Source of the DNA: Candidatus Latescibacterota bacterium
GTDB lineage: Bacteria > Latescibacterota > UBA2968 > UBA8231
Assembly: GCA_965204725.1 (NCBI GenBank)
Contig: CBDBFD010000001.1
Location: 1 to 51,736, forward strand
Direction of reading: 5' to 3'
DNA length: 51,736 bases
This document shows positions 6,662-51,736 of this stretch, piece after piece. Under the pieces are notes generated by a model. It was not told the DNA's origin and did not search any database. It saw only the letters and a list, made by a program, of their open reading frames with translations. Positions within the stretch are counted from its first letter, which is position 1. Each line of letters begins with the position of its first letter. The translations under genes were made by a program, and so were the position numbers.

Positions 6662-7651
6662 CTACGTGGTATCCTCAATGGGCTGAGACTGGATGTCTGC
6701 TTGGACGATCTCTTGTAGGCGCATCTGCGCGTTATAGTAGATGGTCTGTGGCGAGTAGTCAAAAGAGGCTATGCGGACATAGCGCAGGCTGGCGGGTGTG
6801 CCCATCATTACACCCACGGGGGTTGTATCGCCCGCGGACTCTTGAACCGCAATGAGTTGGTCAAGCTGATCCTCGTCAATGAGGTCCCAAGCGACGTCCA
6901 AGTCGCGGTAGTTGCGCTGCCTCCGATTGTTGGGATAGCGCCCTTGCACACGCGGCGCGGCCGGGTTGCCGTAGCGCGTCTGTGCCCCATCGCGGTAGCG
7001 GCGCGGCCCAATGACCTGTCGCGTACCGTGCATCACCCGCCCAATGTAGAGGATGGAGTTGAGGGGGCTGGCCGGGCGTGTGACTGCGAACTGTAGGATA
7101 AAGCCCCCTGAGCGCGTTTGTCCCGGCCACGTGAACGCATGGTTGCCGCGCCAGATCGTACAGGGAAAGACACGGGGCGCGGTCGAGTGCCTGCGAAAGA
7201 AGCTGAAGGTAGAGGGCCGTAGGGTCACGGTCTCAGGGTCTTTATCGTAACTCGTGGACGATATGGCTGTGCCCAAGTTCTTGACGCCGATGGTGAGCGT
7301 TGGCTTGTCGGCAACGGGGAGCGAGTGCCGCAGCTTGTCGTCGCCATAGCCACTGGGGGCGTCATACTCGGGGCCGATTATAGCAATATCGAAGATGCCG
7401 ATGGTGTCGCCTCGCGGCGCGGTTGTCCCCAGCACATTCATTAGGAAGGTCTTAGACAGATTGCCTGCCGTGTGCGCCAGCGGGCGGCTGATCCACGCCA
7501 CCGCAGGGGAGGGGTTGGCAATGACCCGCGGCTGGTTGGCTCCGTCGGCGGTGTTGTTGCCGACCGCCGTTACGCTGACCACACTGGCGTTGTTATTGCT
7601 CTCGATGGCCTCCCGCCAGTCGGGATCGTCAAGGAACCATAGGTTGGACAT
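6662..7651 (-). CDS. Putative distal tail (Dit-like) / minor tail protein, 329 aa
   Basis: Lies between tape measure and tail-tip genes; GGAG RBS; function inferred from synteny only. Confidence 0.55.
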   Translation of the reverse strand: MSNLWFLDDPDWREAIESNNNASVVSVTAVGNNTADGANQPRVIANPSPAVAWISRPLAHTAGNLSKTFLMNVLGTTAPRGDTIGIFDIAIIGPEYDAPSGYGDDKLRHSLPVADKPTLTIGVKNLGTAISSTSYDKDPETVTLRPSTFSFFRRHSTAPRVFPCTIWRGNHAFTWPGQTRSGGFILQFAVTRPASPLNSILYIGRVMHGTRQVIGPRRYRDGAQTRYGNPAAPRVQGRYPNNRRQRNYRDLDVAWDLIDEDQLDQLIAVQESAGDTTPVGVMMGTPASLRYVRIASFDYSPQTIYYNAQMRLQEIVQADIQSQPIEDTT

Positions 7652-10092: not shown

Positions 10093-10414
10093 CGCGTCGT
10101 TCCTTGCTGGCCTCGAAGTGGGCGGTGGCGATCACATCAAAAGCACGGGCATACTTGGCCTCGACCTCCATCGGGTCGATAGCCGGGTGCAACAGGTATG
10201 CTCCGTCGCTGCTGACGGTGTGGTAGGTCTTGAACTGGCTCAAGGCTGAGAGTGTGAACGGCGTTGCGCGGTCGCAGTGATAAAGCTGGTCACGCTCCCG
10301 CGGCGTAAAGGACGCTCGCTGCGGATGCCGACAAGCCTTCACAAACACGCAGTCGCGGCAGTGTTCACACCGCTGGCCGTCGAGCGTGTGCTGGACGGCC
10401 TCCCTTAGTTTTTT
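10067..10414 (-). CDS. Tail assembly chaperone, -1 frameshift extension (GT-like)
   Basis: The -1 frame from A-AAA-AAC is open (KLREAVQHTLDGQRCEHCRDCVFVKAC...) and in frame with ORF 10067-10348. Confidence 0.75.
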   Translation of the reverse strand, partial: KKLREAVQHTLDGQRCEHCRDCVFVKACRHPQRASFTPRERDQLYHCDRATPFTLSALSQFKTYHTVSSDGAYLLHPAIDPMEVEAKYARAFDVIATAHFEASKERRDAARETKP

Positions 10415-10809
10415 GACTCATCCTCCGTCAGGACGGACGTGTCATTGACCGCGGCAAAGACCTCATTGCACCAAAGGGGCGTCCCATCGCTGGCGTGATA
10501 GACATTATCCAGCCACGCGGTCATCGCATCGGCCCCCTCCTCGATGCCCTTAAACCCGCGATAGTTGCGCGTCCCCAGCAAGAGGTGAATGAGCACTGTG
10601 GCCACCATGTCATTCAGCCCCGTCAACGCCTCTTTGGTCTCGTCGTCCTCCACGTGATCTTGAATGAACTCCTCTTGACGCTGGGGCGTCCGCTGGAGCA
10701 CCAGCAGGTCGCGCGTCTTGAGATACTTGACGTCCACCTTCGCGCCCTTGAACGGCTCGCCGGTCAGGGTGAGGGTGCGATAGTCCCCCTTAGTCTTCGT
10801 CGTCATCAA
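10405..10809 (-). CDS. Tail assembly chaperone (G-like), ~134 aa
   Basis: Between tail tube and TMP; ends ESKN at the slippery site. Confidence 0.8.
   Translation of the reverse strand: MMTTKTKGDYRTLTLTGEPFKGAKVDVKYLKTRDLLVLQRTPQRQEEFIQDHVEDDETKEALTGLNDMVATVLIHLLLGTRNYRGFKGIEEGADAMTAWLDNVYHASDGTPLWCNEVFAAVNDTSVLTEDESKN
10408..10414 (-). other. Programmed -1 ribosomal frameshift site (A AAA AAC)
   Basis: Minus strand reads TCA AAA AAC TAA: an X-XXY-YYZ heptamer just before the chaperone stop codon, at the canonical position before the TMP gene. Confidence 0.8.
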
Positions 10810-12668: not shown

Positions 12669-13222
12669 GCCGCTATGCTCAGGGTAAAGAGTGCGCTGCG
12701 ATGGCCCGCCCCCTCAATGTCCGGGTGGGCGCGAAAGTCAATGCCGGTGATGATGATGAACTCAAAGCCGTTGTAGGTCTGGTTCGCGTCAAGCAAGTAG
12801 CGCACTACATCCGCGAGCCCCTCGATGGTGCGCGTCGCCGTCTGAATATGCGCGGCGGTATCGGCCACCACCTCTTTGGACACATCCACAAAGGCCGTGT
12901 AGGTCCACACAGTCGGGCCGCCGATCTCTTGCGGCTCATAGGGCTGGGCCTCGTCCACCCACACCCGCACAAAGTTGGTCGCTAAGGTCGCCGGTGCGAC
13001 GGGCTTAGGGATCTGATCCCCATCGTAAATGGCCAAGTCGGTTGGCAACGTATCCGTGCTGGTCCCATAGTCAGAAGCCCCCGCACCTGTCCGGTAGCTA
13101 TTCCACTCCGCAACAAGCCCCATACCCGCTGGGTCGGGCGTTACAGTCTGGTCGCCCCCCAGTATCGCCTTGAGGTTGCCTGTAACGCGCCCTACGGGGA
13201 CTAAAGCGTCAAGGGATGCCAT
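12665..13222 (-). CDS. Tail terminator-like neck protein, paralogue A (185 aa)
   Basis: Synteny; shares FVRxWxD.AQP, YTA, YNGF..I.F and RS..FTL.I.A with paralogue B. Confidence 0.6.
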   Translation of the reverse strand: MASLDALVPVGRVTGNLKAILGGDQTVTPDPAGMGLVAEWNSYRTGAGASDYGTSTDTLPTDLAIYDGDQIPKPVAPATLATNFVRVWVDEAQPYEPQEIGGPTVWTYTAFVDVSKEVVADTAAHIQTATRTIEGLADVVRYLLDANQTYNGFEFIIITGIDFRAHPDIEGAGHRSALFTLSIAA

Positions 13223-13695
13223 TACGCCTGTACCTCCGTCAGATAGCGTCTGCGCCCCTTGAGGCGGCTCTTACGCAGCAACTGGTCACGCCGCCGGAAC
13301 TTGGCCACTAAAGAATAGCCGAAGATGTCGCCAAGAACCTCGCTGTTATCGAACAGGAACGGACGCCGCGCATTCACCGCCGCCGCGTAGGGAACCTTCG
13401 TGCCCAGCCGCAGCTTGTTGCCCCGCCCCCTGAACAGGTGGTCAGGGTCCTTGCGGCGCGTCAAGCTATCGTAGAGCCGCCCCGTCTCAATCAGTATCTG
13501 CGGCCCTTGCTTGCGAGCAGCATAGGCAGGGGTTAGGGGTGCCCACGGCTGGCCGTCCGGCCCCTGTTGCCGCGCGAACATCTGCTTCGTCTCCTCGATG
13601 AAGCACTGCTGGAAGGCGCGGCCTAGCTTCTTGCGCCGCGAGAAGGGCTTGTTGAGCCGCTGGGACACGCGGGTTATGAGGATGCTCTTAGCCAT
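13222..13695 (-). CDS. Phage virion morphogenesis / tail completion protein (Mu gpG-like)
   Basis: Motifs PDGQPWAPL, ILIETGRLYDSL, GTKVPYAA and ARRPFL. Confidence 0.85.
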   Translation of the reverse strand: MAKSILITRVSQRLNKPFSRRKKLGRAFQQCFIEETKQMFARQQGPDGQPWAPLTPAYAARKQGPQILIETGRLYDSLTRRKDPDHLFRGRGNKLRLGTKVPYAAAVNARRPFLFDNSEVLGDIFGYSLVAKFRRRDQLLRKSRLKGRRRYLTEVQA

Positions 13696-13963: not shown

Positions 13964-16957
13964 TTAGGCCGCCATATACCAAGCGTCAATCGCCGGGATC
14001 GTGCCCGGCAACGAGGCCGTGGCGATCATCAGGTTACGTGCGGCATTCACGGAGACATACATCGCATTAAAACCCGCCGGTCGCCAACGGACGATGACGC
14101 CGTTCTCAGACTGCGGGGTCGTAGCCTCGTTGATGTCTTGGGCCAGTATAGAGCCGTGTACAGTCAGGCAGGCCGTGCCCCGCGCGTTGAGGTTGAAGGC
14201 GATGTTGTACATCCGGCTATTCACTTCGGATACGGTCCCAAGATTGATGCCGGTATCGACCCAGTTCGATTGACTGCCCGTCACGTTGGTGACGCCGCCA
14301 GCCCGCGTCCACCCGGCCGCCGGTGCGGGAGTGCCGCCGCCTGCCGATGCCCCGCCCGTCACCTGGGCAAAGGCAACCAGATGCGCCCCGATGGTGACGG
14401 AGCCGCTCGTGCCCGTCGATCCCGCGTTGTACACCAACTGGCGATAGAGGTTGTTATCAGCATCCCGCGACAGCCATAGCTCCAGCGTGCCAACGACATT
14501 CGACCCCTCATAGAGCTCCTGCTCGACGACCTTCAACCCCTCTTGTGCGCCCCCGGCCACCCATTCGTCACTATCAATCAGGTCGTTAATCGACACAAAG
14601 CCACTGACGGTTATCTGTGTCGTAGCCGCCGTGCTCGTTCTAGGGGGGATGCTCTCAAAGCCCACTGTGCCCGCCGGGACGGACGCGCCGACGATATTCA
14701 GTCGCAGCGAGCAATCGACGATCCCGTGCGTGTGGGTGTCCATGTCGAAGGCCGGACTGAACGCCGCCCGCACCCCCAAGACATCGGCGTCGTAGCCGCT
14801 GGTGATGGCGATGCCCCCTACCGCCCCGTCTTGCAGCTCGATGTTACCCGCGCCCGGTAGCCCCGTGATGCGGTTGGCCGGTATGTTGCCCTGTAGGGCC
14901 GCAGCGGGGAAACGGATGTTGTCGCCGAACTCCGTCGGGCCGTACCACTCCCCGAATATCTCCGCGCCTTCAGGGACGCTGATCTGCCCCGCCCCCTGCG
15001 GCGTCAAGTGCAGCTTCCAATAATCGTAGGTTACAGGCGAGTCAGCCGATGCCCCTGCATAGCTGTCGAGGGCCTCAATCAGGCCGTCGTCAATGACTAC
15101 CCGTAGGTCGGTGGCATCGGGCCGTCCACCCAGCACGGAACGCTCCGTGCGAAGGATCACCCATCGCTGCGTCCCCAGCGCGGGGGTCTGTTCAGGCAGG
15201 CGAGCGGAATAGGTCAGGCCGCGAATAGTCTGTAGGGTTGGGTCTGTCGTTTGCAACGGGGCCACGGTGACGCCCGTGGACGTGCGCCAGCCGCCGGTCT
15301 CTACATCCTTGCCTAGTGCCTCCAGTTGCCGCAGGTAGGGGTTGAGGGCGTTGTAGAAGCCCTGTAGCCCCGCGACCAGCTTGTCCCAGCCCCAACGGGC
15401 CGTGTTGCCTGTCAGCGCGATGGCGTTGACAAGGCGATTGACGCCCGCCGTGATCAGCGCGTTCGCCTCGTTTTGATTGAGGCCCCGCGCCGGGACATTG
15501 CCCAGCTTGTTCGACGGGACTTGATCTGTATTGCCCTCCTCGGCCCAATCGCTGACCCCTGCCGCGACACGGGCATCGACCTGCGCCTGCGTCAGCCCGC
15601 CACCGCCGCCGCTGGGTGCGTTCCCCAGCTTGTTGAGCGGTATCTGGCTCGTATCGCCTTCCTCTGCCCAATCGCTGACCCCAGCGGCTACCCGCGCATC
15701 CGCACGAGCGTCTATCTCCGCATTGGTTGGGATGTCGGGCAGCTTGGCGTCCGGCACTTGGGCTGTGCTGGACCGCCGCGCGAAGTCCTCAAGGTCAATC
15801 TGATTATCGAATAGCTGAAGCGTGACGTTGGTGCTGTTCTCCCAAGCGAGCAGGAACTTAGGCGTCGCGCCCCCCGTATGGCCCAAGTAGTACTGCGTAT
15901 TGGACAGGCTGAACGCCACGGAGTTCGCCGCCGTCAGCTGATCGCCGTTGCTGGTCGCCGGCTTACCCAGCAGCTCAGACACCGTCAGGGTGTGCGATTG
16001 GCCGCCAATGACGACGCGCAGTCGCCGGGCATCGGCAGCGGGCGGCACATCCGGGTTGGGATTGGGAAACGGCGAGGCCCGCTCAGAGAGGGCGATCGGG
16101 ACCGTGCCATTGAACAGGGACTCCTCAAAGCGCAGCCCCTCCTCGCTGTTGCTGAGGTCCACAACCGCCGGGTGCGTCGCCACGTTGCCCAGCTTGTCGG
16201 CGGGTATCTGATCCGTGTTGCCCTTCGTAGCCCAATCCGCTTGCGGCTGGGCGATCCACTCCGTGAAGCCATCGCTACCCACCGCCAGCACCCAGCCGAT
16301 CTGCGCGGTGCTGGCATCCCCAAAGTCGGCTATCACCGGGAGCTCGTCGTTATTTTTGACCGCGAACTCCTCGACCGCCTCGTTGATGATCGCCAGCACA
16401 TCGACGCGATCCAGCCCGCCCCCCTGCCCGCCGGAGGGAATGGTGATATTGAGGGTGTTCTCTACCCCGCTATCGTCTATCAGCGTAAAGGTGATCGTGC
16501 GCGTCGCAGGGGCATAGCGGACCGCCGTCACCCGCCCGCCGGTGGCCACCGCCTCGGCCCACGCACGGATGCGTACCAGCAGGGACGGTATATCCTCGAC
16601 ATCCAAGTCGAGCGCGTCAGGCAACTCCATAGACCCCAGCGTCTTGAGCCAGTCCTTCCACGGGGCCGCCCACGGGTTGCTCGCACGGTCGGACGCCTGG
16701 CTATACTCCATCGCATGGACGAGGTAGAGTGTCCCAAGCGCATTGCCGTAGGCTACGGCCTTATACGCGATGGGGGAGGAGGCCTCAACAAGGGGAACCT
16801 GATACATGACGCCCAAATAGGCGTTGATCTCATTGGCGATCTGAACGGCGGCCTCATGCACCTGACCCACATTGGGGACTATCGAGGCATCAAACGCCTT
16901 ACCGTAGAGGGCCTGTAACGCCTCGTCAGACGTGTAGCTGTTGGGAATGGCTGGCAT
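13964..16957 (-). CDS. Head-tail adaptor (Mu gp36/DUF1320-like) fused to a long repeat-containing fibre-like region, 997 aa
   Basis: Directly after the MCP; N-terminal ~120 aa has the gp36-type pattern (YTS..L, ANEINAYLG.MYQVPL, WL..L); internal DWA..G.T.Q.P..KLGN repeats. Confidence 0.7.
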   Translation of the reverse strand: MPAIPNSYTSDEALQALYGKAFDASIVPNVGQVHEAAVQIANEINAYLGVMYQVPLVEASSPIAYKAVAYGNALGTLYLVHAMEYSQASDRASNPWAAPWKDWLKTLGSMELPDALDLDVEDIPSLLVRIRAWAEAVATGGRVTAVRYAPATRTITFTLIDDSGVENTLNITIPSGGQGGGLDRVDVLAIINEAVEEFAVKNNDELPVIADFGDASTAQIGWVLAVGSDGFTEWIAQPQADWATKGNTDQIPADKLGNVATHPAVVDLSNSEEGLRFEESLFNGTVPIALSERASPFPNPNPDVPPAADARRLRVVIGGQSHTLTVSELLGKPATSNGDQLTAANSVAFSLSNTQYYLGHTGGATPKFLLAWENSTNVTLQLFDNQIDLEDFARRSSTAQVPDAKLPDIPTNAEIDARADARVAAGVSDWAEEGDTSQIPLNKLGNAPSGGGGGLTQAQVDARVAAGVSDWAEEGNTDQVPSNKLGNVPARGLNQNEANALITAGVNRLVNAIALTGNTARWGWDKLVAGLQGFYNALNPYLRQLEALGKDVETGGWRTSTGVTVAPLQTTDPTLQTIRGLTYSARLPEQTPALGTQRWVILRTERSVLGGRPDATDLRVVIDDGLIEALDSYAGASADSPVTYDYWKLHLTPQGAGQISVPEGAEIFGEWYGPTEFGDNIRFPAAALQGNIPANRITGLPGAGNIELQDGAVGGIAITSGYDADVLGVRAAFSPAFDMDTHTHGIVDCSLRLNIVGASVPAGTVGFESIPPRTSTAATTQITVSGFVSINDLIDSDEWVAGGAQEGLKVVEQELYEGSNVVGTLELWLSRDADNNLYRQLVYNAGSTGTSGSVTIGAHLVAFAQVTGGASAGGGTPAPAAGWTRAGGVTNVTGSQSNWVDTGINLGTVSEVNSRMYNIAFNLNARGTACLTVHGSILAQDINEATTPQSENGVIVRWRPAGFNAMYVSVNAARNLMIATASLPGTIPAIDAWYMAA

Positions 16958-16974
16958 AGCAAGCCTCAGATAGA

Positions 16975-17014
16975 GGGGTAGCTGAGGGACACGGAAAGCC
17001 CCTCAGCCTGCCCC
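16975..17014 (-). terminator. GC hairpin after the major capsid gene (terminator or mRNA-stabilising stem)
   Basis: gctgaggg/ccctcagc stem with a gggg/cccc extension; U-tract weak. Confidence 0.45.
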
Positions 17015-17033
17015 AGTGAAAGCTAAGCCACCG

Positions 17034-17981
17034 TTACAGCGCGGTGACGTTCAGATATGCGGAGCAAGAGGTGTCGTTGAAGTTGACCACCTCAGCGAAC
17101 AGCGTCACCCGGTAGATGCGACCCAGGTTGCCCTCCGCATAGCCCACGTCCACGACCTGCACACCCGGCATGGCGTCCGGCGTGATGGCCGCGAGACCCT
17201 TCGTCTTGCTGCCATCGTCGAACTTGACGGCATAGATGGTGCGGACTTGGCCCGTACCCTTCGTGGTCTCGGCGATATGGCCGTTGAACAGGATGGGCAC
17301 ACCGCGATACGCCTCCACGGTCTGCATCTCCATCTCCCCGGTGAACATATTGGGGATATTGACCGTCTCGGTGATGCCTGCGCCACCCGCGGCCCGCTGG
17401 GCCTTAGCGTAGCTGTTGAGCATCGTCGGGTGCATGATGAAGGCGTCCGTGCCGTGCTGGTTCTGCACGATGAGCTCGTCCAGCATGGCGAGGTCAAACG
17501 GGTCGCCGTTGGTGCTGGTGCTGTTGAGCTTCTGGCTGCCCTTGATGACGTCGGTGTCATCGAGGCCCTGCAGGCGCGTACCGGAGCCGTCCCCCGGGCC
17601 GTTGCCATTGATGAAGTCGTCGTCGAAGAAGCGAGAGACCCGCTCGGTGTGGAGGTCGATCTGACCCATCAGAAAGCCCGCGTCGCCGTTGTAGCTGGCG
17701 TCGAGGTCGATCTGCGAGTAAATGGGCTTCCACCGGCGGTTCTTCTGCGTCCACGTGGGGGCCGCCCGCGCCGAAGCAGCGACAGGCGCATACGCGCCCG
17801 AAGCGGCAGCACTGGCCGCGCCCAGGGCGTCAATCTCGTTCCACTGAACACCCGACGCGGGGCTACCGATAAACGGCAGGCGCGACAAGATGTTGCTGGA
17901 ACGGGTGAGGTTATTGGCAATACGCTGCGCGAGGTCAGGGTGACGTTGCGCCGTGTACTGCGCGAGAGTAGTAGCAGGCAT
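17034..17981 (-). CDS. Major capsid protein, 315 aa
   Basis: AGGAGG RBS; ILSRLPF, DFINGNG, LQGL, DLAMLDEL, FIMHPT and YRGVPI match HK97-fold MCP patterns; follows the scaffold. Confidence 0.9.
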   Translation of the reverse strand: MPATTLAQYTAQRHPDLAQRIANNLTRSSNILSRLPFIGSPASGVQWNEIDALGAASAAASGAYAPVAASARAAPTWTQKNRRWKPIYSQIDLDASYNGDAGFLMGQIDLHTERVSRFFDDDFINGNGPGDGSGTRLQGLDDTDVIKGSQKLNSTSTNGDPFDLAMLDELIVQNQHGTDAFIMHPTMLNSYAKAQRAAGGAGITETVNIPNMFTGEMEMQTVEAYRGVPILFNGHIAETTKGTGQVRTIYAVKFDDGSKTKGLAAITPDAMPGVQVVDVGYAEGNLGRIYRVTLFAEVVNFNDTSCSAYLNVTAL

Positions 17982-18020: not shown

Positions 18021-18785
18021 TTAGCGCCCTATCTGAGCCACTAGCTCCGCATCCGTCTTGGTGATGGTCGGCTCGCGGCTCATGCCCGACTGGGGCGGCT
18101 GATTAGCGGGCGATGCCACTTGCGCGGGGAGGACCTTCTTAAAGCCCTCGTCCTTGAACGCCGCGTCAAGCAGATCGTCCAGAGTGTATGGAATACGATT
18201 GATCCCATCACTGGCCAGTCGAGTAGCGGGTCGGCCATTCGCATCTAAGACCGTGATGCTCTCCACACCCTTATCATCCCGATCCAAGCGGATGCGGTCT
18301 GACAGTTTCGCGCGGAGAGTGTCCAGCGGACTGAACGAACCAAGAGCCAACGGATCGTCGCTCTGGCCGTTCTCAGATGCCGTGTCGGGCGTCAGCCGCC
18401 GGGCAAATGCTGACACAAGTTTATGATCCAGCGCGGTCGTGTCAAGCCGCGACTGTAGGTCGTCAATCTTCTGCTTGGCATTCTCTACGGACTGCTCAAG
18501 CTCTTTCTCGCGCTCGCCGGGCGTCCCTTTGGCCTTCTCAAGCGCGGCTTGCGCCTCCGTGAGCTGGGTCGTCAACGCCTCCTTCTCGCCAGTCAGGGCC
18601 GCTACGGACGCCTTCTGCGTATCCAGGTCGCTGAGGATGCTGGCGTTGTTGGCGACGCTCCAGCCCTCGCCCGTGACCTGTAGCCGCCACGAGCTACTGC
18701 CATCTTGCCGCTTGTTCTCCACATAGTGCTCACGCAGGCTCTCAGGCACTTCCTCTTGCGTCTTGTAATCGGGCGTGAGGGCCAT
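18021..18785 (-). CDS. Capsid scaffolding protein, 254 aa
   Basis: EEVPESLREHYVE N-terminus and a long acidic coiled coil; immediately upstream of the MCP. Confidence 0.8.
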   Translation of the reverse strand: MALTPDYKTQEEVPESLREHYVENKRQDGSSSWRLQVTGEGWSVANNASILSDLDTQKASVAALTGEKEALTTQLTEAQAALEKAKGTPGEREKELEQSVENAKQKIDDLQSRLDTTALDHKLVSAFARRLTPDTASENGQSDDPLALGSFSPLDTLRAKLSDRIRLDRDDKGVESITVLDANGRPATRLASDGINRIPYTLDDLLDAAFKDEGFKKVLPAQVASPANQPPQSGMSREPTITKTDAELVAQIGR

Positions 18786-19329: not shown

Positions 19330-20748
19330 TTACTCTCCTTCCGGCGGGTCGGCCGGGGAATTAGGCGGATCAGGCGGGTCCGCCCGATTACCGCTGGGAT
19401 TTAACAACATTGTTTCCTCAAAAGACCGATCAATCGTCACCGCCAGATTAGACGGCGGCTCCCGGTCGAGCAGGCGATAGGCGAGGCGACACGCCTTCGT
19501 CAGGGCATCGTCCACATTCTGCACCGCACTACGCACCGCCGCCCGTGCTGCCACCGTACCCAGCAAGGTCTGCGTCGCCGTCACATTCGGCATCGGCTGG
19601 GCGGACACCTGACCAGCAAAGCGGCCCTGCACATAGTCAATCATCTCGCGGATGCTATTGGAGATAGGCTCAGCCGCGCTCGTGTCCGGCCCCACGTAGA
19701 ACACATCGCCATCCTTGCCAATCAGAATGCGCTGGCTTGTCTGCACATCCGTCGTGGAGGAGAGCACGTTGCGCTCCGTGCTGGCCTCGGCTTGACGCTT
19801 CTCGCGCTCAGCCCGCTGAACCTCTTTCAGGTTCACTTCCTTCAGCACCTGCCACCGCGTCATCGCCGTGTGCAGGTAGTGGTTGCGCGCATTCTGCTGC
19901 GAGTAAATCTCTATGTTCACGGCAGCACAGTCCGCAAACGGCGGGCGACCAATCATAGGGGCCTGCGGCTGGGACGCATAGCACTGGACGATGGGCGGCC
20001 CCGACAGCGTCAACTCCTCGTTGGCACTATACGGCATGTACGGCACATCGTCCGGGTCGTCAGCCAGCACGTCCTTGACGTTGCCCTGGCCGCGCTTGAC
20101 ACGCAGCTCCTTGAAGCCACGCGCATCGTAGTAGAGCACTGTCGCCTGCAGCGCGTGCTCGCGGTCGTAGTGATACTGAACCTCCCGTATCTCCTCAACC
20201 TGCTCACGCCGGTTCGTCAGCCAGTCATAGACATTGAGCGTCGGGAGCAAGCGAAAGTAGGGAGCGAGCCGACGCTGCTCGTAATCGAAGATGGAAGGGA
20301 CACCATCAAACGCAGGCAAGAACACGCCGATATGGGCCACACCATAGGTCAGCACCTCGCGCAACGCATTCTCAGCAAACTCCGTCAGGGTGCTCCCGCC
20401 GCCGTCCACATCCTCTTGCCACGCCTGTGGCAACGCACTGTCAGCCCTCAGCACCACCGGCTGGCTGAACGGCGCGGTCGAGAGTGTGTGGATACCATGC
20501 GCGTAGTAGTTCTCCAGCACCGCCCGCTCGGTGCGTATCAGGTAGTCGCTGTCGCGCTCCCCCTGCTGCTGAGGCAGGTAGCGGCTCGACAACGCCTGCA
20601 GGCGCGGCTGACCACCGAGGACGTCCACAACAGGACGCCAATGGCGCATCGAAAGGCTGTAGAGCGGGTGCTCGTCGAGGCCGTTGGTGCCGCGGACGAT
20701 AGCCCCGTCAGACGCATTGGCATTGAGCCTATTTTGAATTTCCGTCAT
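19330..20748 (-). CDS. Portal protein (DUF4055-like), 472 aa
   Basis: YLPQ...E..DY..R..RA...NY, DVDG.G..L..F, PPF.D.A.VN and TAT motifs; follows TerL. Confidence 0.9.
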   Translation of the reverse strand: MTEIQNRLNANASDGAIVRGTNGLDEHPLYSLSMRHWRPVVDVLGGQPRLQALSSRYLPQQQGERDSDYLIRTERAVLENYYAHGIHTLSTAPFSQPVVLRADSALPQAWQEDVDGGGSTLTEFAENALREVLTYGVAHIGVFLPAFDGVPSIFDYEQRRLAPYFRLLPTLNVYDWLTNRREQVEEIREVQYHYDREHALQATVLYYDARGFKELRVKRGQGNVKDVLADDPDDVPYMPYSANEELTLSGPPIVQCYASQPQAPMIGRPPFADCAAVNIEIYSQQNARNHYLHTAMTRWQVLKEVNLKEVQRAEREKRQAEASTERNVLSSTTDVQTSQRILIGKDGDVFYVGPDTSAAEPISNSIREMIDYVQGRFAGQVSAQPMPNVTATQTLLGTVAARAAVRSAVQNVDDALTKACRLAYRLLDREPPSNLAVTIDRSFEETMLLNPSGNRADPPDPPNSPADPPEGE

Positions 20749-20757
20749 GTCGTCAAT

Positions 20758-21999
20758 TTACACGTAGCGAGAGTAGGCGTCAAGGTTCCATACGCCACTT
20801 GCGAGGTATCGTAAAGCGTCCACAGCGTGATCGTTCTCTTTTACCGGCCCATCCTCGCCACGCGCCGCCTTCTTCTCGTCGTACACGTAGCCCTGTAACT
20901 CCTCAATGAGCCGCTCGCAGCGTTCAAGGATGTAGATGGTCGGCTTCTCAAGCTGCACACGCAGGCAGGCTATACCCGCCAGCACGTCCTTCTTCACACT
21001 CGGCAGGTAACAGTCCATCGAACGATACTCAGCCACATCGCCCGCCGCCGCCGGGTCCACGTAGAAGCCGCTGGCGTCCGGCCAGTCCGCCCCTAGCATA
21101 TTCTCCCGCTGTCGGGCGATCACCGCCTTTGCGTGTTCCCGCGGTGTCCGCTCGCCATCCTCGGGCCGAAAGTAGTATTCGTCGTAGATCAGCAGGTTAT
21201 CCAGCCGCGTCCGCGCCCCATAGACGGCGGCATAGGGCACAGCATAGCCTACATCCACCGCCACCAGCACCTCCTCGATGTAGGCGGTCGGCAACTCCCC
21301 CTCCTTGACCACTGTGAACTGCGGAAAGATGGCCCCCGACGCCACCGCCCACTCCCCCTCGACCAGCCGCGTGTAGTCCGCCCCGGCGAATAGCCCGCGG
21401 TAGAACGCGCGGTTTGACTCAGCCAGCGTCGGGTTGTCGTTCAGTGTGAAGTGCAGCGAGCGATCAATCGTCCCCCCGTCGTCGATCCGCTTCTTTAGCC
21501 ACGAGGTCGGCGCGGTGGGATTAGCACACATCCACACCTTCCCATTCGGCATCGTCACGCGGCTGAGGATGCGATTGACAAAATCTTCGGACAGAAGGGA
21601 GGCCTCGTCTATCAGGGCGCAGCAGGCACTAAATCCCATTGGAGCCGCCTCGCTGAGGATATTCTCCCCCGCCAGCAGCTTGTATTGCTGGTCGCCTATA
21701 TGCAGCATCGACCGCCCCCGGTCATACCGGCTGGGGATACCCGCATCATCGGCAAAGCCACGCATCGGCGCGACAATCGCCTCCTCTATCACGGAGACCT
21801 TGCGGCCAACCAGCAGATGCAGGTAGCCCGGCGGCAACGGCGGCATGGTGGCCGTGTAGAGGAACAGGCCCAACGCCGCGCTCCACGTCTTGCCGCTGCG
21901 TATCGCGCCTACGCTGGCGACGGTGCGCGGCTTGTCGGTAGGGGTCGTCCCCCAGCCAGCGAGAACCTTCTGCTTAGGGCTAAGCGTCGCTCGAGGCAT
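20758..21999 (-). CDS. terL: Terminase large subunit (probable start MPRATLS at 21999)
   Basis: Walker A GAIRSGKT, Walker B LIDEA, ANP coupling motif, RNase H-like VDVG and NDHAVDALRY. Confidence 0.95.
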   Translation of the reverse strand: MPRATLSPKQKVLAGWGTTPTDKPRTVASVGAIRSGKTWSAALGLFLYTATMPPLPPGYLHLLVGRKVSVIEEAIVAPMRGFADDAGIPSRYDRGRSMLHIGDQQYKLLAGENILSEAAPMGFSACCALIDEASLLSEDFVNRILSRVTMPNGKVWMCANPTAPTSWLKKRIDDGGTIDRSLHFTLNDNPTLAESNRAFYRGLFAGADYTRLVEGEWAVASGAIFPQFTVVKEGELPTAYIEEVLVAVDVGYAVPYAAVYGARTRLDNLLIYDEYYFRPEDGERTPREHAKAVIARQRENMLGADWPDASGFYVDPAAAGDVAEYRSMDCYLPSVKKDVLAGIACLRVQLEKPTIYILERCERLIEELQGYVYDEKKAARGEDGPVKENDHAVDALRYLASGVWNLDAYSRYV

Positions 22000-22393
22000 T
22001 GGCTTCGGCCTTGAGGGAGGCGAGCAGATCATTGAGCAGGGAGGCATCGACACCACTGGATTGAGCGGCCTGTGCCCGCTGCCGCTCACGGACCATCGCC
22101 GCCGCCTCTTTTACGCCGCGCCAGTCCTTCGCTTCGAGGGCCATCTCGCGAACCTTAAAGGGGGCCTCGGCCTCTTGCTCGGCGGCAAGCGCATCGCGCA
22201 CCGCTTCGTGCAGTACAAAGTGCGGACGCTGCCATTGAGGCCCCTCCCCTTTGTAGCAACGCCAGCGCGAAACCAAATAGGTCGAATAGCGAATACCAGC
22301 CTGCTTACAGGCCCACTGAATACCCTTCCCGTAATAGAGGTTCTTCTCAATATCACGGAGCTTGTCAGCCGTCAATTTTATCGGAGGTGCCAT
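21980..22393 (-). CDS. terS: Terminase small subunit, 137 aa
   Basis: HTH-like ACKQAGIRYSTY and KDWR motif; overlaps the terL start. Confidence 0.75.
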   Translation of the reverse strand: MAPPIKLTADKLRDIEKNLYYGKGIQWACKQAGIRYSTYLVSRWRCYKGEGPQWQRPHFVLHEAVRDALAAEQEAEAPFKVREMALEAKDWRGVKEAAAMVRERQRAQAAQSSGVDASLLNDLLASLKAEANASSDA

Positions 22394-28320: not shown

Positions 28321-28586
28321 CCTCGAAGCTGAAAGACGAACTGGCCCGGTGTCGGACGGCGTATACCGAGATGCTGGGCGAGAAGCAGCGGCTGGCCGAT
28401 CATTGGGCCAAGACCGAGTCCGATAAATGGCGGGCCGTGGGCGAGCGCGACGAGGCGCGACGGCAGGCCAAGCACAACCGCCGACTGGCGGATGGGTATC
28501 GGCGGCAGCGCGACAGGGAGCGTGCGCGGGTCGAGGAGTTGGAGCGGGAGCTTGAGGCGTTGGGCGGGGCCAGTGTGGTGGCGTGA
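28311..28586 (+). CDS. Coiled-coil hypothetical protein (MSVTSKL)
   Basis: GGAGG RBS; ERDEARR-type coiled coil. Confidence 0.65.
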   Translation: MSVTSKLKDELARCRTAYTEMLGEKQRLADHWAKTESDKWRAVGERDEARRQAKHNRRLADGYRRQRDRERARVEELERELEALGGASVVA

Positions 28587-29656: not shown

Positions 29657-29875
29657 ATGACCTATCCCAGCAAGCCCATCCACGAGCAGCCCGACGACGT
29701 CTCGGCGGAACAGGCCGCGGCGAACTATCGGGCGTTGCGTTTTTTAACAAACCAGGGCTACGCCCCGACACAGGAGACCATCGACAAGGTCGAGCGGCAG
29801 ATGGACCGGTCGTCGCCGCCGATGGTGCCGCCCCGCGTCCGGGGGAATGTCAAGCGTCGCGGGCGGCCGCAGTGA
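29657..29875 (+). CDS. Hypothetical protein, 72 aa (MTYPSK)
   Basis: GGAGG RBS before ATG 29657. Confidence 0.6.
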   Translation: MTYPSKPIHEQPDDVSAEQAAANYRALRFLTNQGYAPTQETIDKVERQMDRSSPPMVPPRVRGNVKRRGRPQ

Positions 29876-48881: not shown

Positions 48882-51736
48882 TTAGGCCGCCATATACCAA
48901 GCGTCAATCGCCGGGATCGTGCCCGGCAACGAGGCCGTGGCGATCATCAGGTTACGTGCGGCATTCACGGAGACATACATCGCATTAAAACCCGCCGGTC
49001 GCCAACGGACGATGACGCCGTTCTCAGACTGCGGGGTCGTAGCCTCGTTGATGTCTTGGGCCAGTATAGAGCCGTGTACAGTCAGGCAGGCCGTGCCCCG
49101 CGCGTTGAGGTTGAAGGCGATGTTGTACATCCGGCTATTCACTTCGGATACGGTCCCAAGATTGATGCCGGTATCGACCCAGTTCGATTGACTGCCCGTC
49201 ACGTTGGTGACGCCGCCAGCCCGCGTCCACCCGGCCGCCGGTGCGGGAGTGCCGCCGCCTGCCGATGCCCCGCCCGTCACCTGGGCAAAGGCAACCAGAT
49301 GCGCCCCGATGGTGACGGAGCCGCTCGTGCCCGTCGATCCCGCGTTGTACACCAACTGGCGATAGAGGTTGTTATCAGCATCCCGCGACAGCCATAGCTC
49401 CAGCGTGCCAACGACATTCGACCCCTCATAGAGCTCCTGCTCGACGACCTTCAACCCCTCTTGTGCGCCCCCGGCCACCCATTCGTCACTATCAATCAGG
49501 TCGTTAATCGACACAAAGCCACTGACGGTTATCTGTGTCGTAGCCGCCGTGCTCGTTCTAGGGGGGATGCTCTCAAAGCCCACTGTGCCCGCCGGGACGG
49601 ACGCGCCGACGATATTCAGTCGCAGCGAGCAATCGACGATCCCGTGCGTGTGGGTGTCCATGTCGAAGGCCGGACTGAACGCCGCCCGCACCCCCAAGAC
49701 ATCGGCGTCGTAGCCGCTGGTGATGGCGATGCCCCCTACCGCCCCGTCTTGCAGCTCGATGTTACCCGCGCCCGGTAGCCCCGTGATGCGGTTGGCCGGT
49801 ATGTTGCCCTGTAGGGCCGCAGCGGGGAAACGGATGTTGTCGCCGAACTCCGTCGGGCCGTACCACTCCCCGAATATCTCCGCGCCTTCAGGGACGCTGA
49901 TCTGCCCCGCCCCCTGCGGCGTCAAGTGCAGCTTCCAATAATCGTAGGTTACAGGCGAGTCAGCCGATGCCCCTGCATAGCTGTCGAGGGCCTCAATCAG
50001 GCCGTCGTCAATGACTACCCGTAGGTCGGTGGCATCGGGCCGTCCACCCAGCACGGAACGCTCCGTGCGAAGGATCACCCATCGCTGCGTCCCCAGCGCG
50101 GGGGTCTGTTCAGGCAGGCGAGCGGAATAGGTCAGGCCGCGAATAGTCTGTAGGGTTGGGTCTGTCGTTTGCAACGGGGCCACGGTGACGCCCGTGGACG
50201 TGCGCCAGCCGCCGGTCTCTACATCCTTGCCTAGTGCCTCCAGTTGCCGCAGGTAGGGGTTGAGGGCGTTGTAGAAGCCCTGTAGCCCCGCGACCAGCTT
50301 GTCCCAGCCCCAACGGGCCGTGTTGCCTGTCAGCGCGATGGCGTTGACAAGGCGATTGACGCCCGCCGTGATCAGCGCGTTCGCCTCGTTTTGATTGAGG
50401 CCCCGCGCCGGGACATTGCCCAGCTTGTTCGACGGGACTTGATCTGTATTGCCCTCCTCGGCCCAATCGCTGACCCCTGCCGCGACACGGGCATCGACCT
50501 GCGCCTGCGTCAGCCCGCCACCGCCGCCGCTGGGTGCGTTCCCCAGCTTGTTGAGCGGTATCTGGCTCGTATCGCCTTCCTCTGCCCAATCGCTGACCCC
50601 AGCGGCTACCCGCGCATCCGCACGAGCGTCTATCTCCGCATTGGTTGGGATGTCGGGCAGCTTGGCGTCCGGCACTTGGGCTGTGCTGGACCGCCGCGCG
50701 AAGTCCTCAAGGTCAATCTGATTATCGAATAGCTGAAGCGTGACGTTGGTGCTGTTCTCCCAAGCGAGCAGGAACTTAGGCGTCGCGCCCCCCGTATGGC
50801 CCAAGTAGTACTGCGTATTGGACAGGCTGAACGCCACGGAGTTCGCCGCCGTCAGCTGATCGCCGTTGCTGGTCGCCGGCTTACCCAGCAGCTCAGACAC
50901 CGTCAGGGTGTGCGATTGGCCGCCAATGACGACGCGCAGTCGCCGGGCATCGGCAGCGGGCGGCACATCCGGGTTGGGATTGGGAAACGGCGAGGCCCGC
51001 TCAGAGAGGGCGATCGGGACCGTGCCATTGAACAGGGACTCCTCAAAGCGCAGCCCCTCCTCGCTGTTGCTGAGGTCCACAACCGCCGGGTGCGTCGCCA
51101 CGTTGCCCAGCTTGTCGGCGGGTATCTGATCCGTGTTGCCCTTCGTAGCCCAATCCGCTTGCGGCTGGGCGATCCACTCCGTGAAGCCATCGCTACCCAC
51201 CGCCAGCACCCAGCCGATCTGCGCGGTGCTGGCATCCCCAAAGTCGGCTATCACCGGGAGCTCGTCGTTATTTTTGACCGCGAACTCCTCGACCGCCTCG
51301 TTGATGATCGCCAGCACATCGACGCGATCCAGCCCGCCCCCCTGCCCGCCGGAGGGAATGGTGATATTGAGGGTGTTCTCTACCCCGCTATCGTCTATCA
51401 GCGTAAAGGTGATCGTGCGCGTCGCAGGGGCATAGCGGACCGCCGTCACCCGCCCGCCGGTGGCCACCGCCTCGGCCCACGCACGGATGCGTACCAGCAG
51501 GGACGGTATATCCTCGACATCCAAGTCGAGCGCGTCAGGCAACTCCATAGACCCCAGCGTCTTGAGCCAGTCCTTCCACGGGGCCGCCCACGGGTTGCTC
51601 GCACGGTCGGACGCCTGGCTATACTCCATCGCATGGACGAGGTAGAGTGTCCCAAGCGCATTGCCGTAGGCTACGGCCTTATACGCGATGGGGGAGGAGG
51701 CCTCAACAAGGGGAACCTGATACATGACGCCCAAAT
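48882..51736 (-). CDS. Adaptor-fibre fusion (repeat copy, 5' end cut by the window edge)
   Basis: Identical to 13964-16818. Confidence 0.7.
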   Translation of the reverse strand, partial: LGVMYQVPLVEASSPIAYKAVAYGNALGTLYLVHAMEYSQASDRASNPWAAPWKDWLKTLGSMELPDALDLDVEDIPSLLVRIRAWAEAVATGGRVTAVRYAPATRTITFTLIDDSGVENTLNITIPSGGQGGGLDRVDVLAIINEAVEEFAVKNNDELPVIADFGDASTAQIGWVLAVGSDGFTEWIAQPQADWATKGNTDQIPADKLGNVATHPAVVDLSNSEEGLRFEESLFNGTVPIALSERASPFPNPNPDVPPAADARRLRVVIGGQSHTLTVSELLGKPATSNGDQLTAANSVAFSLSNTQYYLGHTGGATPKFLLAWENSTNVTLQLFDNQIDLEDFARRSSTAQVPDAKLPDIPTNAEIDARADARVAAGVSDWAEEGDTSQIPLNKLGNAPSGGGGGLTQAQVDARVAAGVSDWAEEGNTDQVPSNKLGNVPARGLNQNEANALITAGVNRLVNAIALTGNTARWGWDKLVAGLQGFYNALNPYLRQLEALGKDVETGGWRTSTGVTVAPLQTTDPTLQTIRGLTYSARLPEQTPALGTQRWVILRTERSVLGGRPDATDLRVVIDDGLIEALDSYAGASADSPVTYDYWKLHLTPQGAGQISVPEGAEIFGEWYGPTEFGDNIRFPAAALQGNIPANRITGLPGAGNIELQDGAVGGIAITSGYDADVLGVRAAFSPAFDMDTHTHGIVDCSLRLNIVGASVPAGTVGFESIPPRTSTAATTQITVSGFVSINDLIDSDEWVAGGAQEGLKVVEQELYEGSNVVGTLELWLSRDADNNLYRQLVYNAGSTGTSGSVTIGAHLVAFAQVTGGASAGGGTPAPAAGWTRAGGVTNVTGSQSNWVDTGINLGTVSEVNSRMYNIAFNLNARGTACLTVHGSILAQDINEATTPQSENGVIVRWRPAGFNAMYVSVNAARNLMIATASLPGTIPAIDAWYMAA

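What the first reader, a model, noticed from the sequence alone, without database searches (positions are those of the whole stretch)
13964..16957. Head-tail adaptor fused to a ~870-aa fibre-like extension
Seen: the gene after the MCP starts with a Mu gp36/DUF1320-like segment and stays open for 997 aa. It contains 3-4 repeats (ADWATKGNTDQIPADKLGN, SDWAEEGDTSQIPLNKLGN, SDWAEEGNTDQVPSNKLGN, looser EDFARRSSTAQVPDAKLPD), Gly linkers and beta-rich C-terminal domains. Established: gp36-type adaptors are small (~140 aa) proteins forming a ring under the portal. Inference: the neck ring itself may display large collar fibres or adhesins, an architecture I do not recognise from described phages.
Basis: partly seen in the sequence, partly recalled or inferred. 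Interest (0 to 1): 0.8.

Follow-up and report, generated by a model that had tools for sequence, protein, structure and literature searches.

The report
Head-tail adaptor fused to long fibre
A phage gene joins the small protein that normally links head to tail with a roughly 870-residue modular, fibre-like extension, so the neck ring itself probably carries its own collar fibres, which described phages build from separate proteins.

Summary
A single 997-aa ORF lies on the minus strand at 13964-16957, directly after the major capsid gene. It has four copies of an 18-aa motif, Gly linkers and a beta-rich C-terminal half.

Residues 1-140 are adaptor-like, on several weak but concordant lines:
- Pfam Mu Gp36 at E 0.004, below the curated cut-off.
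- PHROG head-tail adaptor at E 0.049.
- A family profile whose best three PDB hits are Mu gene product J and the JBD30 DUF1320 adaptor.
- A confident AlphaFold model whose best viral-structure matches are head-to-tail adaptors and DUF1320 proteins.

The fusion is real:
- Codon bias is uniform along the ORF.
- Contigs from three runs cross the junction with no difference.
- Six metagenomic relatives of 641-1555 aa carry the same N-terminal domain; in five of them alignments run across the junction.

The phage is long-tailed. No other ORF in the window matches this adaptor profile.

My reading is an adaptor ring with covalently attached collar or neck fibres, probably accessory adhesins. Display, copy number and binding are untested, and the extension's folds stay unassigned. 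I rate it a new variant of a known kind, of moderate interest.

The parts
13964..16957 (-). Whole gene: 997-aa adaptor-fibre fusion protein (P0001), including the stop codon
   Evidence: Uniform GC3 in one frame. Independent contigs are identical over 15281-17100.
16637..16957 (-). aa 1-107: alpha-helical bundle, DUF1320 / Mu gp36-like head-tail adaptor core. Contains the conserved NPW-x3-W motif at aa 94-100.
   Evidence: PF07030 E 0.004. phrog_195 E 0.049. Profile A1 against PDB: the best 3 of 7 hits are Mu gene product J and the JBD30 DUF1320 protein. AF2 pLDDT 85.7. BFVD Foldseek best hit is a head-to-tail adaptor, E 6.9e-4, TM 0.60. Conserved columns.
16538..16636 (-). aa 108-140: lower-confidence arm with an invariant Asp in the LPD motif, then a helix (125-139) with a conserved Trp133. 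Inferred to be the portal-binding C-terminal arm or hook of the adaptor.
   Evidence: Alignments. pLDDT falls to 56-72 here. The analogy is to JBD30 gp41, whose C-terminus wedges between portal clip domains and stacks two Trp on the portal stem (paper PMC11445458, passages). This is inference, not a test.
16253..16537 (-). aa 141-235: junction module, made of a beta-hairpin mini-domain (153-173), a Gly linker (175-181) and two helices (184-235)
   Evidence: Secondary structure (low pLDDT). Conserved in P0026, P0030, P0023, P0024 and P0002, with BLAST alignments running through it.
16184..16237 (-). Repeat motif copy 1 (aa 241-258)
15794..16132 (-). aa 276-388: confidently predicted beta-sandwich module between motif copies 1 and 2
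   Evidence: pLDDT 77-90 per 10-residue block, all-beta DSSP
15734..15787 (-). Repeat motif copy 2 (aa 391-408, the looser copy)
15620..15673 (-). Repeat motif copy 3 (aa 429-446), preceded by a short helix and followed by a Gly5 linker
15497..15550 (-). Repeat motif copy 4 (aa 470-487)
   Evidence: This helix-plus-motif unit is what most of the 21 other proteins share with the query.
14933..15295 (-). aa 555-675: beta-rich domain, moderately confident
   Evidence: pLDDT mostly 68-87. Conserved in P0002, P0024 and P0030.
14360..14845 (-). aa 705-866: beta-sandwich (jelly-roll-like) domain
   Evidence: pLDDT 67-91. Only weak Foldseek resemblance to legume lectins and viral jelly-roll capsid proteins (E 1e-3 to 4e-2, low TM).
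13967..14314 (-). aa 882-997: C-terminal (distal) beta domain after a Gly/Ala/Pro linker. Present twice in P0002.
   Evidence: DSSP beta but pLDDT below 50. BLAST 787-994 and 899-997 against two places in P0002. Atlas search uninformative.
48882..51734 (-). Second copy of the same gene, cut by the window's end, in the wrap-around part of the window
   Evidence: 0 mismatches over 16,818 positions at offset 34,918.

Best explanation
The gene encodes this long-tailed phage's head-tail adaptor. Residues 1-140 form a DUF1320 / Mu gp36-type helical bundle plus a portal-binding arm, expected to assemble as a 12-subunit ring under the portal. The same polypeptide continues into about 860 residues of modular extension: linkers, a repeated helix-plus-motif unit, and four or five beta-rich domains.

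The extension would leave the ring at the head-tail junction. It would form up to 12 covalently anchored collar or neck fibres, or fewer if the chains pair or form trimers. Most likely these act as accessory adhesins for reversible first contact with the host surface.

Shown here: one ORF; an adaptor-like N-terminus; a fusion conserved in a small family; a long-tailed gene set; and no second ORF in the window that matches this adaptor profile.

Inferred: ring formation, exit point, copy number, display and binding function.
For: (1) Position. The gene lies between the major capsid gene and a Phage_tail_S / Neck1-type gene (PF05069 E 1.7e-11, 44.7 bits above the 24.3 cut-off; phrog_26 E 2.9e-16). 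That is the usual adaptor slot.

(2) Adaptor-like N-terminus by sequence.
- PF07030 E 0.004.
- phrog_195 'head-tail adaptor' E 0.049.
- The 10-sequence profile A1 against PDB gave 7 sequences at E <= 10. The best 3 are Mu 'Gene product J' (5ydn_A E 0.023, 9khx_A E 0.045) and the JBD30 DUF1320 protein 8rka_B (E 0.18), all aligned N-terminus to N-terminus.
- hhalign of A1 against JBD30 gp41 gave E 0.0025 over 65 columns at 34% identity.

(3) Adaptor-like N-terminus by fold. AF2 of aa 1-140 has pLDDT 85.7 and five helices. In Foldseek against BFVD, ranks 1, 3, 5, 8 and 9 of the top 9 are named head-to-tail adaptor, DUF1320 or Mu Gp36 (E 6.9e-4 to 9.5e-2, TMq 0.47-0.60). The other four are unnamed.

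(4) The fusion is not an artefact. GC3 is uniform. Contigs of three runs cross the junction with 0 differences.

(5) The fusion is conserved. phmmer of aa 1-140 against 1.84 billion representatives found 8 proteins at E <= 0.001.
- Five are 641-1446 aa with the domain at the N-terminus: P0023, P0024, P0025 (N-truncated), P0026 and P0030.
- Three are 236-249 aa with the domain at the C-terminus.
- None is a bare protein of about 140 aa.
- P0002 (1555 aa) also has the domain.
- BLAST alignments run through the junction: P0024 1-855, P0023 1-260, P0026 1-239, P0030 41-196, P0002 42-258.

(6) No other ORF of at least 40 aa, of 722 in the window, matches the A1 profile at E <= 10. The neighbouring small ORFs show no adaptor signal.

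(7) Long tail. There is an in-frame A-AAA-AAC slippery site at the end of the 134-aa ORF. A -1 shift there reads into the 93-aa ORF. A gene for a Gly-rich, helical 809-aa tape-measure-like protein comes next.

(8) In JBD30, the adaptor's C-terminus runs up the outside of the portal clip and stem to about the level of the capsid shell (PMC11445458, passages). A C-terminal extension would therefore start at the head-tail junction.
Against: - Every sequence match to adaptor families is below curated or conventional significance: 17.7 against 24.7 bits, PDB E 0.023-0.18, hhalign probability 12%.
- Foldseek against solved structures found nothing. 0 of 59 matches had E <= 0.001, the best was E 2.3, and the solved DUF1320 adaptors were not among the listed rows. 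The only adaptor listed was Sf6 gp7, at rank 4 with E 3.3.
- In the full-length AF2 run, the N-terminal domain was low-confidence, though it had the same helices.
- The extension matches no Pfam or PHROG family. Foldseek gave only weak jelly-roll and lectin rows with TM <= 0.28. The Atlas scores of 0.80 and 0.87 are in the chance range. 'Fibre' and 'adhesin' therefore rest on architecture alone.
- The oligomeric state is unknown.
- In canonical DUF1320 adaptors the C-terminus is the portal-binding element, so a large C-terminal fusion might interfere with docking.
- Several neighbouring ORFs (90, 179, 185 and 199 aa) have no assignment. One of them could be an adaptor of another type.
- The genomic context of the relatives could not be seen.
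Confidence: 0.6

Rival explanations
1. The protein is a fibre or decoration that only borrows an adaptor-like helical domain as its anchor, for example to the tail, baseplate or capsid. The true portal-binding adaptor would be one of the unassigned small neighbours (90, 179, 185 or 199 aa).
For: The small neighbours have no family assignment, so an adaptor of another fold family cannot be excluded. Every sequence match of the N-terminus to adaptor families is sub-threshold. There was no significant PDB fold match.
Against: The gene sits exactly in the adaptor slot, after the capsid gene and before the Neck1 / tail-completion gene. All hits, sequence and fold, point to the same family in the same register. 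Only this ORF matches the family profile. The arm with its conserved LPD and Trp, which resembles the portal-binding tail of solved adaptors, is kept in all fused relatives.
Confidence: 0.17
2. The ORF is made as a precursor, or in two forms. The extension would be cleaved off, or a shorter adaptor-only product would be made by frameshifting or slippage. The mature ring would then be mostly or wholly ordinary small adaptors, with few or no attached fibres.
For: Twelve chains of about 860 aa at one ring may be crowded. Gly-rich linkers directly follow the adaptor part. An in-frame G-GGG-GGC run lies at codon 178, and the -1 frame there stops near codon 201.
Against: No protease or self-cleaving chaperone domain was found by Pfam or PHROGs. 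At the matching place, the relatives P0026 and P0030 have no Gly run in their protein sequence, so the G-run is not a conserved signal. Contigs of three runs show no length variation there. The junction module itself is conserved as protein, which argues that it is used.
Confidence: 0.15
3. Assembly or annotation artefact: two genes, a small adaptor and a fibre gene, joined by a sequencing error or a missed stop.
For: Canonical DUF1320 adaptors are about 140 aa: Pfam model 124 positions, PDB chains 109-141 aa. The window is an over-assembled wrap-around contig.
Against: There is no stop in 997 codons and the third-position GC is uniform. Contigs from three runs in three studies are identical across the junction. 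Five relatives at 26-36% identity align straight through the junction. The two copies in the window agree at 16,818 of 16,818 positions.
Confidence: 0.02

Closest known systems
DUF1320 / Phage_Mu_Gp36 head-tail adaptors (PF07030): Mu gene product J (PDB 5ydn, 9khx) and JBD30 gp41 (PDB 8rka)
   Same: The first ~140 aa share the N-terminal register, the helical-bundle fold, the gene position after the capsid gene, and a C-terminal arm with conserved aromatic residues.
   Different: Those proteins are 109-141 aa and end at the portal-binding hook. This one continues for about 860 more residues. Its sequence score is below the family's gathering cut-off.
Collar-whisker complex of myophage Bas63, with related assemblies in Sf14 and podophage GP4
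   Same: A 12-fold ring at the connector from which 12 whiskers extend up and down. This is the same place and symmetry I propose here (PMC12609058, abstract and passages).
   Different: In Bas63 the collar is a separate Ig-like protein mounted on the adaptor, with a putative disulfide link. The whiskers are a third protein wrapped round a 'rope' extension of the collar protein. Here the anchor is the adaptor itself and the fibre is the same polypeptide. No sequence relation was found.
Neck passage structure (NPS) of lactococcal 936 and P335 siphophages
   Same: A large (~500-900 aa), modular, non-essential collar-and-fibre protein at the head-tail junction of a siphophage. It has variable distal carbohydrate-binding modules and acts as an accessory host-binding device (PMC6669499, passages). 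This is the functional model I adopt.
   Different: The NPS anchors through a BppU-like beta-sandwich, predicted to form an 18-mer (6 x 3) ring with trimeric coiled-coil fibres. It is a gene separate from the adaptor. Here the anchor is a helical adaptor domain, no coiled-coil or known CBM was detected, and the stoichiometry would follow 12.
T4 fibritin (wac), XM1 gp40 and the neck fibres of cyanophage A-1(L)
   Same: Fibres attached at the neck of long-tailed phages. T4 and XM1 are as described in the Bas63 paper's discussion. For A-1(L) I saw only the start of the abstract in a search listing: a pentadecamer anchors five bead-chain-like neck fibres.
   Different: All are separate proteins bound non-covalently to neck rings, and none is the adaptor. 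T4 and XM1 whiskers are trimeric coiled coils.
Adaptors with one extra domain: mycobacteriophage Jabs ORF78 (247 aa, inserted beta-domain; said to resemble DT57C) and BFVD adaptor-like entries of 284-365 aa
   Same: They show that adaptor proteins can tolerate added domains at the periphery of the ring (Jabs preprint, passages; BFVD rows 2, 7, 10, 12 and 18). The short relatives P0027-P0029 here carry an extra N-terminal domain.
   Different: The additions are single domains of about 100-200 aa that pack on the portal or capsid. They are not an 860-1400-aa multi-module chain.

Membership tests
Phage_Mu_Gp36 / DUF1320 head-tail adaptor (PF07030) | Sequence match to the family model at or above the curated gathering score | tested here: not met
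   17.7 bits, E 0.004 for aa 1-140, against a cut-off of 24.7 bits. No hit at E <= 0.01 with the whole protein. The relatives P0026 and P0029 also give sub-threshold hits to the same family (E 0.043 and 0.035).
Phage_Mu_Gp36 / DUF1320 head-tail adaptor (PF07030) | Alpha-helical bundle fold shared with known adaptors of the family | tested here: met
Phage_Mu_Gp36 / DUF1320 head-tail adaptor (PF07030) | Gene placed between the major capsid gene and the head-closure / neck / tail-completion genes | tested here: met
   The capsid gene is at 17034-17981. The target follows, then a 90-aa ORF, then a Phage_tail_S / Neck1 gene at 13222-13695.
Phage_Mu_Gp36 / DUF1320 head-tail adaptor (PF07030) | Extended C-terminal arm or hook that inserts between portal clip domains (JBD30: Trp134 and Trp138 stack on the portal stem) | tested here: inconclusive
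   A lower-confidence arm (aa 108-124) with an invariant Asp114, and a helix with conserved Trp133, follow the bundle. The JBD30 description comes from passages read. The portal-adaptor complex prediction returned no verdict.
Phage_Mu_Gp36 / DUF1320 head-tail adaptor (PF07030) | Small stand-alone protein of about 110-140 aa | tested here: not met
   The protein is 997 aa. The relatives are 641-1555 aa, or 236-249 aa with an added N-terminal domain.
Phage_Mu_Gp36 / DUF1320 head-tail adaptor (PF07030) | Dodecameric ring under the portal in the virion | not testable with these tools
   Needs cryo-EM or a 12-mer model.
Neck collar / whisker / NPS fibre proteins (T4 wac, Bas63 collar and whisker, lactococcal NPS) | Separate gene product that docks on the finished connector | tested here: not met
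   The anchor and the extension are one ORF.
Neck collar / whisker / NPS fibre proteins (T4 wac, Bas63 collar and whisker, lactococcal NPS) | Sequence relation to a known collar or whisker family | tested here: not met
   0 Pfam and 0 PHROG families for the whole protein at E <= 0.01. For the three extension pieces there was no Pfam hit up to E 10, and only chance-level PHROG rows (E 0.099 and 0.54). tblastn against 50,697 GenBank phage records found no match.
Neck collar / whisker / NPS fibre proteins (T4 wac, Bas63 collar and whisker, lactococcal NPS) | Fibres visible at the head-tail junction | not testable with these tools
   Needs electron microscopy of virions.
Phage tail fibre / receptor-binding proteins with carbohydrate-binding modules | Recognisable fibre shaft or carbohydrate-binding fold | tested here: inconclusive
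   Three beta domains are modelled with fair confidence. Foldseek gives only weak rows for legume lectins and jelly-roll capsid proteins (E 1.1e-3 to 4e-2, TMt <= 0.28). The Atlas best for aa 550-870 is 0.80, 'tail tip fibre', which is within the chance range. One repeat-sharing protein, P0014, carries PF02839 in the precomputed column; I recall that family as a carbohydrate-binding module.

The most novel reading that the evidence does not exclude
A so far undescribed family of 'fibre-bearing adaptors'. In these long-tailed phages, the dodecameric head-tail adaptor ring is itself the base of up to twelve covalently tethered, modular, rapidly shuffled adhesin fibres. The phage would therefore recognise its host from the neck as well as from the tail tip, with a stoichiometry fixed by the 12-fold ring rather than by a docking interface. 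The bare ~140-aa form of this adaptor subfamily may not exist at all: none was found among 1.84 billion representatives.
Probability: 0.4. Interest if true: 0.7.

Novelty: new variant of a known kind. Interest (0 to 1): 0.55.

Why it matters
Neck and collar fibres are increasingly seen in cryo-EM structures, but always as extra proteins that dock on the connector.

A covalent adaptor-fibre fusion would be the simplest way to build them. It fixes copy number and position without a docking interface. It also raises a structural question: how do twelve long chains leave a ring whose C-termini normally grip the portal, and how do they resolve 12-fold against 6-, 5- or 3-fold symmetry?

It would add a third site, besides the tail tip and the tail tube, where host-binding modules can be swapped. 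That matters for predicting host range from phage genomes, and it matters for annotation. Such genes are likely to be labelled 'tail fibre' or 'hypothetical', leaving the phage apparently without an adaptor.

The family is small, known only from metagenomes, and unannotated. This complete 34.9-kb genome, linked to a bacterial assembly, may offer an experimentally tractable member.

Tried and rejected
- **Plus-strand reading.** The given coordinates read on the plus strand are full of stops. The gene is on the minus strand.
- **Family scans of the whole protein.** Pfam and PHROGs found nothing at E <= 0.01. Only the isolated N-terminus gave hits.
- **Pfam on relatives.** Ten relatives from the repeat-based search gave nothing meaningful.
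- **Foldseek against PDB.** The N-terminal model had no significant match. The full-length model gave only weak jelly-roll and lectin rows.
- **Complex prediction.** Portal (472 aa) plus adaptor domain (alignment A1) returned 'no answer', score 0.00 against a mark of 0.32. I count this neither for nor against binding.
- **ESM Atlas.** The searches of aa 550-870 and 868-997 gave best scores of 0.80 and 0.87, which are leads only.
- **Genomic context of relatives.** I found none:
  - IMG/VR with P0001 or alignment A3.
  - GTDB genomes.
  - JGI metagenomes.
  - 75 other genomes of the host's order, searched with the A1 profile: 0 of 75.
  - GenBank phages by tblastn.
  - The repeat region alone found one IMG/VR locus, L003. 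Its ORF of at least 1574 aa runs off the contig's 5' end, so its N-terminus is unknown.
- **Word-index searches with A1.** They found only P0028 at near length, and P0001, P0030 and P0002 among longer proteins.
- **Sharing with other genes of the phage.** None: BLAST and the motif scan hit only the gene itself.
- **Programmed frameshift to make a short adaptor.** A G-GGG-GGC run lies at codon 178, but the relatives have no Gly run at the matching place. I rejected it as a conserved signal.
- **The 157-aa neighbour against the JBD30 stopper gp42.** No similarity.
- **PDB sequence searches of the 90-, 185-, 199-, 395- and 179-aa neighbours.** Nothing relevant.
- **RNA evidence.** No RNA holder was listed.
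- **Oddities in the contig tables.** A one-base insertion at 15596 and several joints in run X2 belong to short contigs with loose ends on both sides, or to variant contigs. I do not read them as errors in this gene.
- **Literature.** Searches found no paper describing an adaptor fused to a fibre. These searches cover only the held library and these wordings. Supplementary files, for example the tables of PMC6669499 and PMC11445458, were not seen.

Full report
**What is there.** The window is a whole 51,736-bp contig, the second of a two-contig, 5.43-Mb assembly. It consists of 1.48 copies of a 34,918-bp unit, and the overlapping 16,818 positions agree without a mismatch. So it is a wrap-around assembly of a circular or terminally redundant phage genome of 63% G+C.

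The finding's coordinates are right, but the gene is on the minus strand: 13964..16957, ATG start, 997 codons, no stop. A GAGG lies 7 nt before the ATG.

The minus-strand gene order is:
- large terminase, 20758-22089
- portal, 19330-20748
- a 179-aa ORF
- scaffold, 18021-18785
- major capsid protein, 17034-17981
- the target
- a 90-aa ORF
- a Phage_tail_S / Neck1 protein, 13222-13695
- ORFs of 185, 199, 395 and 134 aa
- an 809-aa protein
- a 329-aa protein
- a 2460-aa protein with seven fibronectin-III stretches

- The four repeat units are at aa 241-258, 391-408, 429-446 and 470-487.
- A pattern written from them matches four times in the protein and never in 20,000 shuffles. The two central units share 24 of 35 residues.
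- Gly-rich linkers and a mostly beta C-terminal half are present.
- Third-position G+C is 0.73-0.83 in every 100-codon block of the single frame.
- Logan contigs of runs X1, X2 and X4 cover window 15281-17100, 15284-17100 and 16039-16720. They show no differing letter and no gap, and so span the adaptor/extension junction. The three runs come from three studies, and one may be the source of the window.

**The N-terminus.** On its own, aa 1-140 hits Pfam Phage_Mu_Gp36 (E 0.004; 17.7 bits against a cut-off of 24.7) and PHROG 195 'head-tail adaptor' (E 0.049).

I built a 10-sequence alignment of this domain, A1. Its profile found seven PDB sequences at E <= 10. The best three are phage Mu 'Gene product J' (E 0.023 and 0.045) and the DUF1320 protein of entry 8rka (E 0.18), all aligned N-terminus to N-terminus. 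The other four are receptor fusion constructs at E > 1. hhalign of A1 against JBD30 gp41 gave E 0.0025 over 65 columns at 34% identity, with a probability of only 12%.

AlphaFold2 with A1 gave a five-helix model of mean pLDDT 85.7. Foldseek against solved structures found nothing significant (best E 2.3). Against BFVD, the best match is the head-to-tail adaptor of Gordonia phage Teatealatte (E 6.9e-4, TMq 0.60). Ranks 3, 5, 8 and 9 are DUF1320 / Mu Gp36 proteins.

Each line is weak or rests on predicted structures. But all point to one family in one register, at the genomic place where an adaptor is expected. I take the domain to be adaptor-like, with about 85-90% confidence. It does not formally meet the Pfam family threshold.

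**The fusion is conserved.** phmmer of aa 1-140 against 1.84 billion representative proteins found eight at E <= 0.001.
- Five are long, with the domain at their N-terminus: P0023 (811 aa), P0024 (806), P0025 (1025, N-truncated), P0026 (641) and P0030 (1446).
- Three are 236-249 aa, with the domain at their C-terminus behind an extra domain.
- None is a bare protein of about 140 aa.
- P0002 (1555 aa) also carries the domain.

BLAST alignments pass straight through the junction: P0024 over 1-855, P0023 1-260, P0026 1-239, P0030 41-196 and P0002 42-258. A missed stop or a chimeric assembly is therefore excluded for practical purposes.

Most of the other 21 proteins found with the full-length query share only the helix-plus-motif repeat of aa 389-506. 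That unit is a widespread shaft or linker unit of long, unannotated metagenomic proteins.

**The extension.** The full-length AlphaFold model is poor overall (pLDDT 56). It has fairly confident beta domains at 276-388, 555-675 and 705-866, a low-confidence beta domain at 882-997, and low-confidence helices through the repeat region.

No Pfam or PHROG family matches. Foldseek shows only weak jelly-roll and legume-lectin rows, and the Atlas scores are in the chance range. 'Fibre-like' is thus an architectural description: repeats, linkers, beads of beta domains, and shuffled modules among relatives. 'Adhesin' is an inference by analogy.

**The phage has a long tail.**
- The Neck1 / tail-completion gene is above Pfam's cut-off.
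- The 134-aa ORF ends in an in-frame A-AAA-AAC heptamer, directly before its stop.
- A -1 shift there reads on into the 93-aa ORF at 10067-10348. This is the classical tail-chaperone arrangement.
- An 809-aa Gly-rich, helical, tape-measure-like protein follows.

So the fused protein is not simply a podovirus tail fibre joined to its adaptor. Its extension would sit at the neck, far from the tail tip.

**Mechanism proposed.** In JBD30, the DUF1320 adaptor is a helical bundle. Its C-terminus wedges between portal clip domains, runs up the stem and ends near the wing, with two Trp stacked on the portal (PMC11445458, passages read).

In the present family, the bundle (aa 1-107) is followed by an arm with an invariant Asp (LPD motif) and a helix with a conserved Trp133. 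I infer that this is the portal-binding element. The chain would then emerge at the head-tail junction into the junction module and the fibre.

Twelve chains could stay single, pair into six, or form four trimers. This is unknown. By analogy with lactococcal neck passage structures, which carry carbohydrate-binding modules and bind host cells weakly (PMC6669499, passages), the most likely role is accessory, reversible host binding. A bracing role between head and tail, as suggested for the Bas63 whiskers (PMC12609058, passages), is the alternative.

**Rivals.**
- A borrowed adaptor-like anchor, with the real adaptor among the unassigned small ORFs (0.17).
- Processing, or a two-form product (0.15).
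- Artefact (0.02).

No other ORF of the window matches the adaptor profile. The small neighbours gave no adaptor signal in Pfam, PHROGs or PDB sequence searches. These negatives are weak.

**Comparison and novelty.** Collar, whisker and neck fibres are known in T4, XM1, Bas63 / Sf14, GP4, A-1(L) and lactococcal phages, always as separate proteins. Adaptors with a single added domain are known too (Jabs), and BFVD holds adaptor-like entries of 284-365 aa.

I found no description of an adaptor carrying a fibre of 500-1400 aa in six literature searches. Nor was there any relative in GenBank phages, IMG/VR, GTDB genomes, JGI metagenomes or 75 genomes of the host's order.

Noticed in passing
window 1-51736 (unit length 34,918 bp; for example 6662-7651 equals 41580-42569): The window is a whole contig made of 1.48 exact copies of a 34,918-bp unit, with 0 mismatches over 16,818 overlapping positions. 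It is the second contig of a 2-contig, 5.43-Mb bacterial assembly. This indicates an extrachromosomal or co-purified phage genome over-assembled round its circle. In the ORFs I scanned, no integrase family appeared.
   Followed up: partly
window 10408-10414 (-), with ORFs 10405-10809 (-), 10067-10348 (-) and 7663-10092 (-): An in-frame A-AAA-AAC slippery heptamer lies directly before the stop of the 134-aa ORF. A -1 shift reads on into the 93-aa ORF. Next comes an 809-aa Gly-rich, helical, tape-measure-like protein. This is a classical tail-chaperone (G/GT-type) frameshift arrangement and marks a long-tailed phage.
   Followed up: partly
window 34184-41566 (-); partial copy at 1-6648: A 2460-aa protein at the end of the tail module has seven fibronectin type III stretches (PF00041, E 7e-51) and no PHROG match. 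It is probably a giant tail-tip or fibre protein. It shares no sequence with the adaptor-fibre protein.
   Followed up: partly
window 28583-29368 (+), 29872-30738 (+), 30735-31517 (+): There are three DNA methyltransferase genes close together: two of the D12 N6-adenine class and one of the N6_N4_Mtase type. They would suit evasion of host restriction.
   Followed up: no
window 16981-17007 (-), between the capsid gene's stop and the target's start: An 8-bp G+C-rich stem with an 11-nt loop lies in the 76-nt spacer after the capsid gene, with no T-run behind it. It could set the ratio of capsid to neck-gene expression. It was not folded or tested.
   Followed up: no
proteins P0027, P0028, P0029 (236-249 aa; metagenomic): The closest short relatives of the adaptor domain carry it at their C-terminus, behind an extra N-terminal domain of about 100 aa that looks beta-rich by eye. 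This adaptor subfamily was therefore found only in extended forms, at either end.
   Followed up: partly
window 14866-14941 and 15241-15434, run X2: Besides contigs identical to the window, run X2 holds short variant contigs with 7 and 29 differing letters over parts of the extension. This suggests a second, related version of the fibre modules in that sample.
   Followed up: no
window 32877-33707 (+): A 276-aa protein has a short match to the zinc-binding region of matrixin-type metallopeptidases (PF00413, E 2e-6, aa 217-246). It may be a lysis or cell-wall enzyme.
   Followed up: no
window 16418-16424 (-), codons 178-180 of the target: A G6 run (G-GGG-GGC, in frame) lies in the Gly linker just after the adaptor part. 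The -1 frame there stops near codon 201. The relatives' proteins have no Gly run at this place, and three runs show no length variation, so it is probably not a signal.
   Followed up: partly
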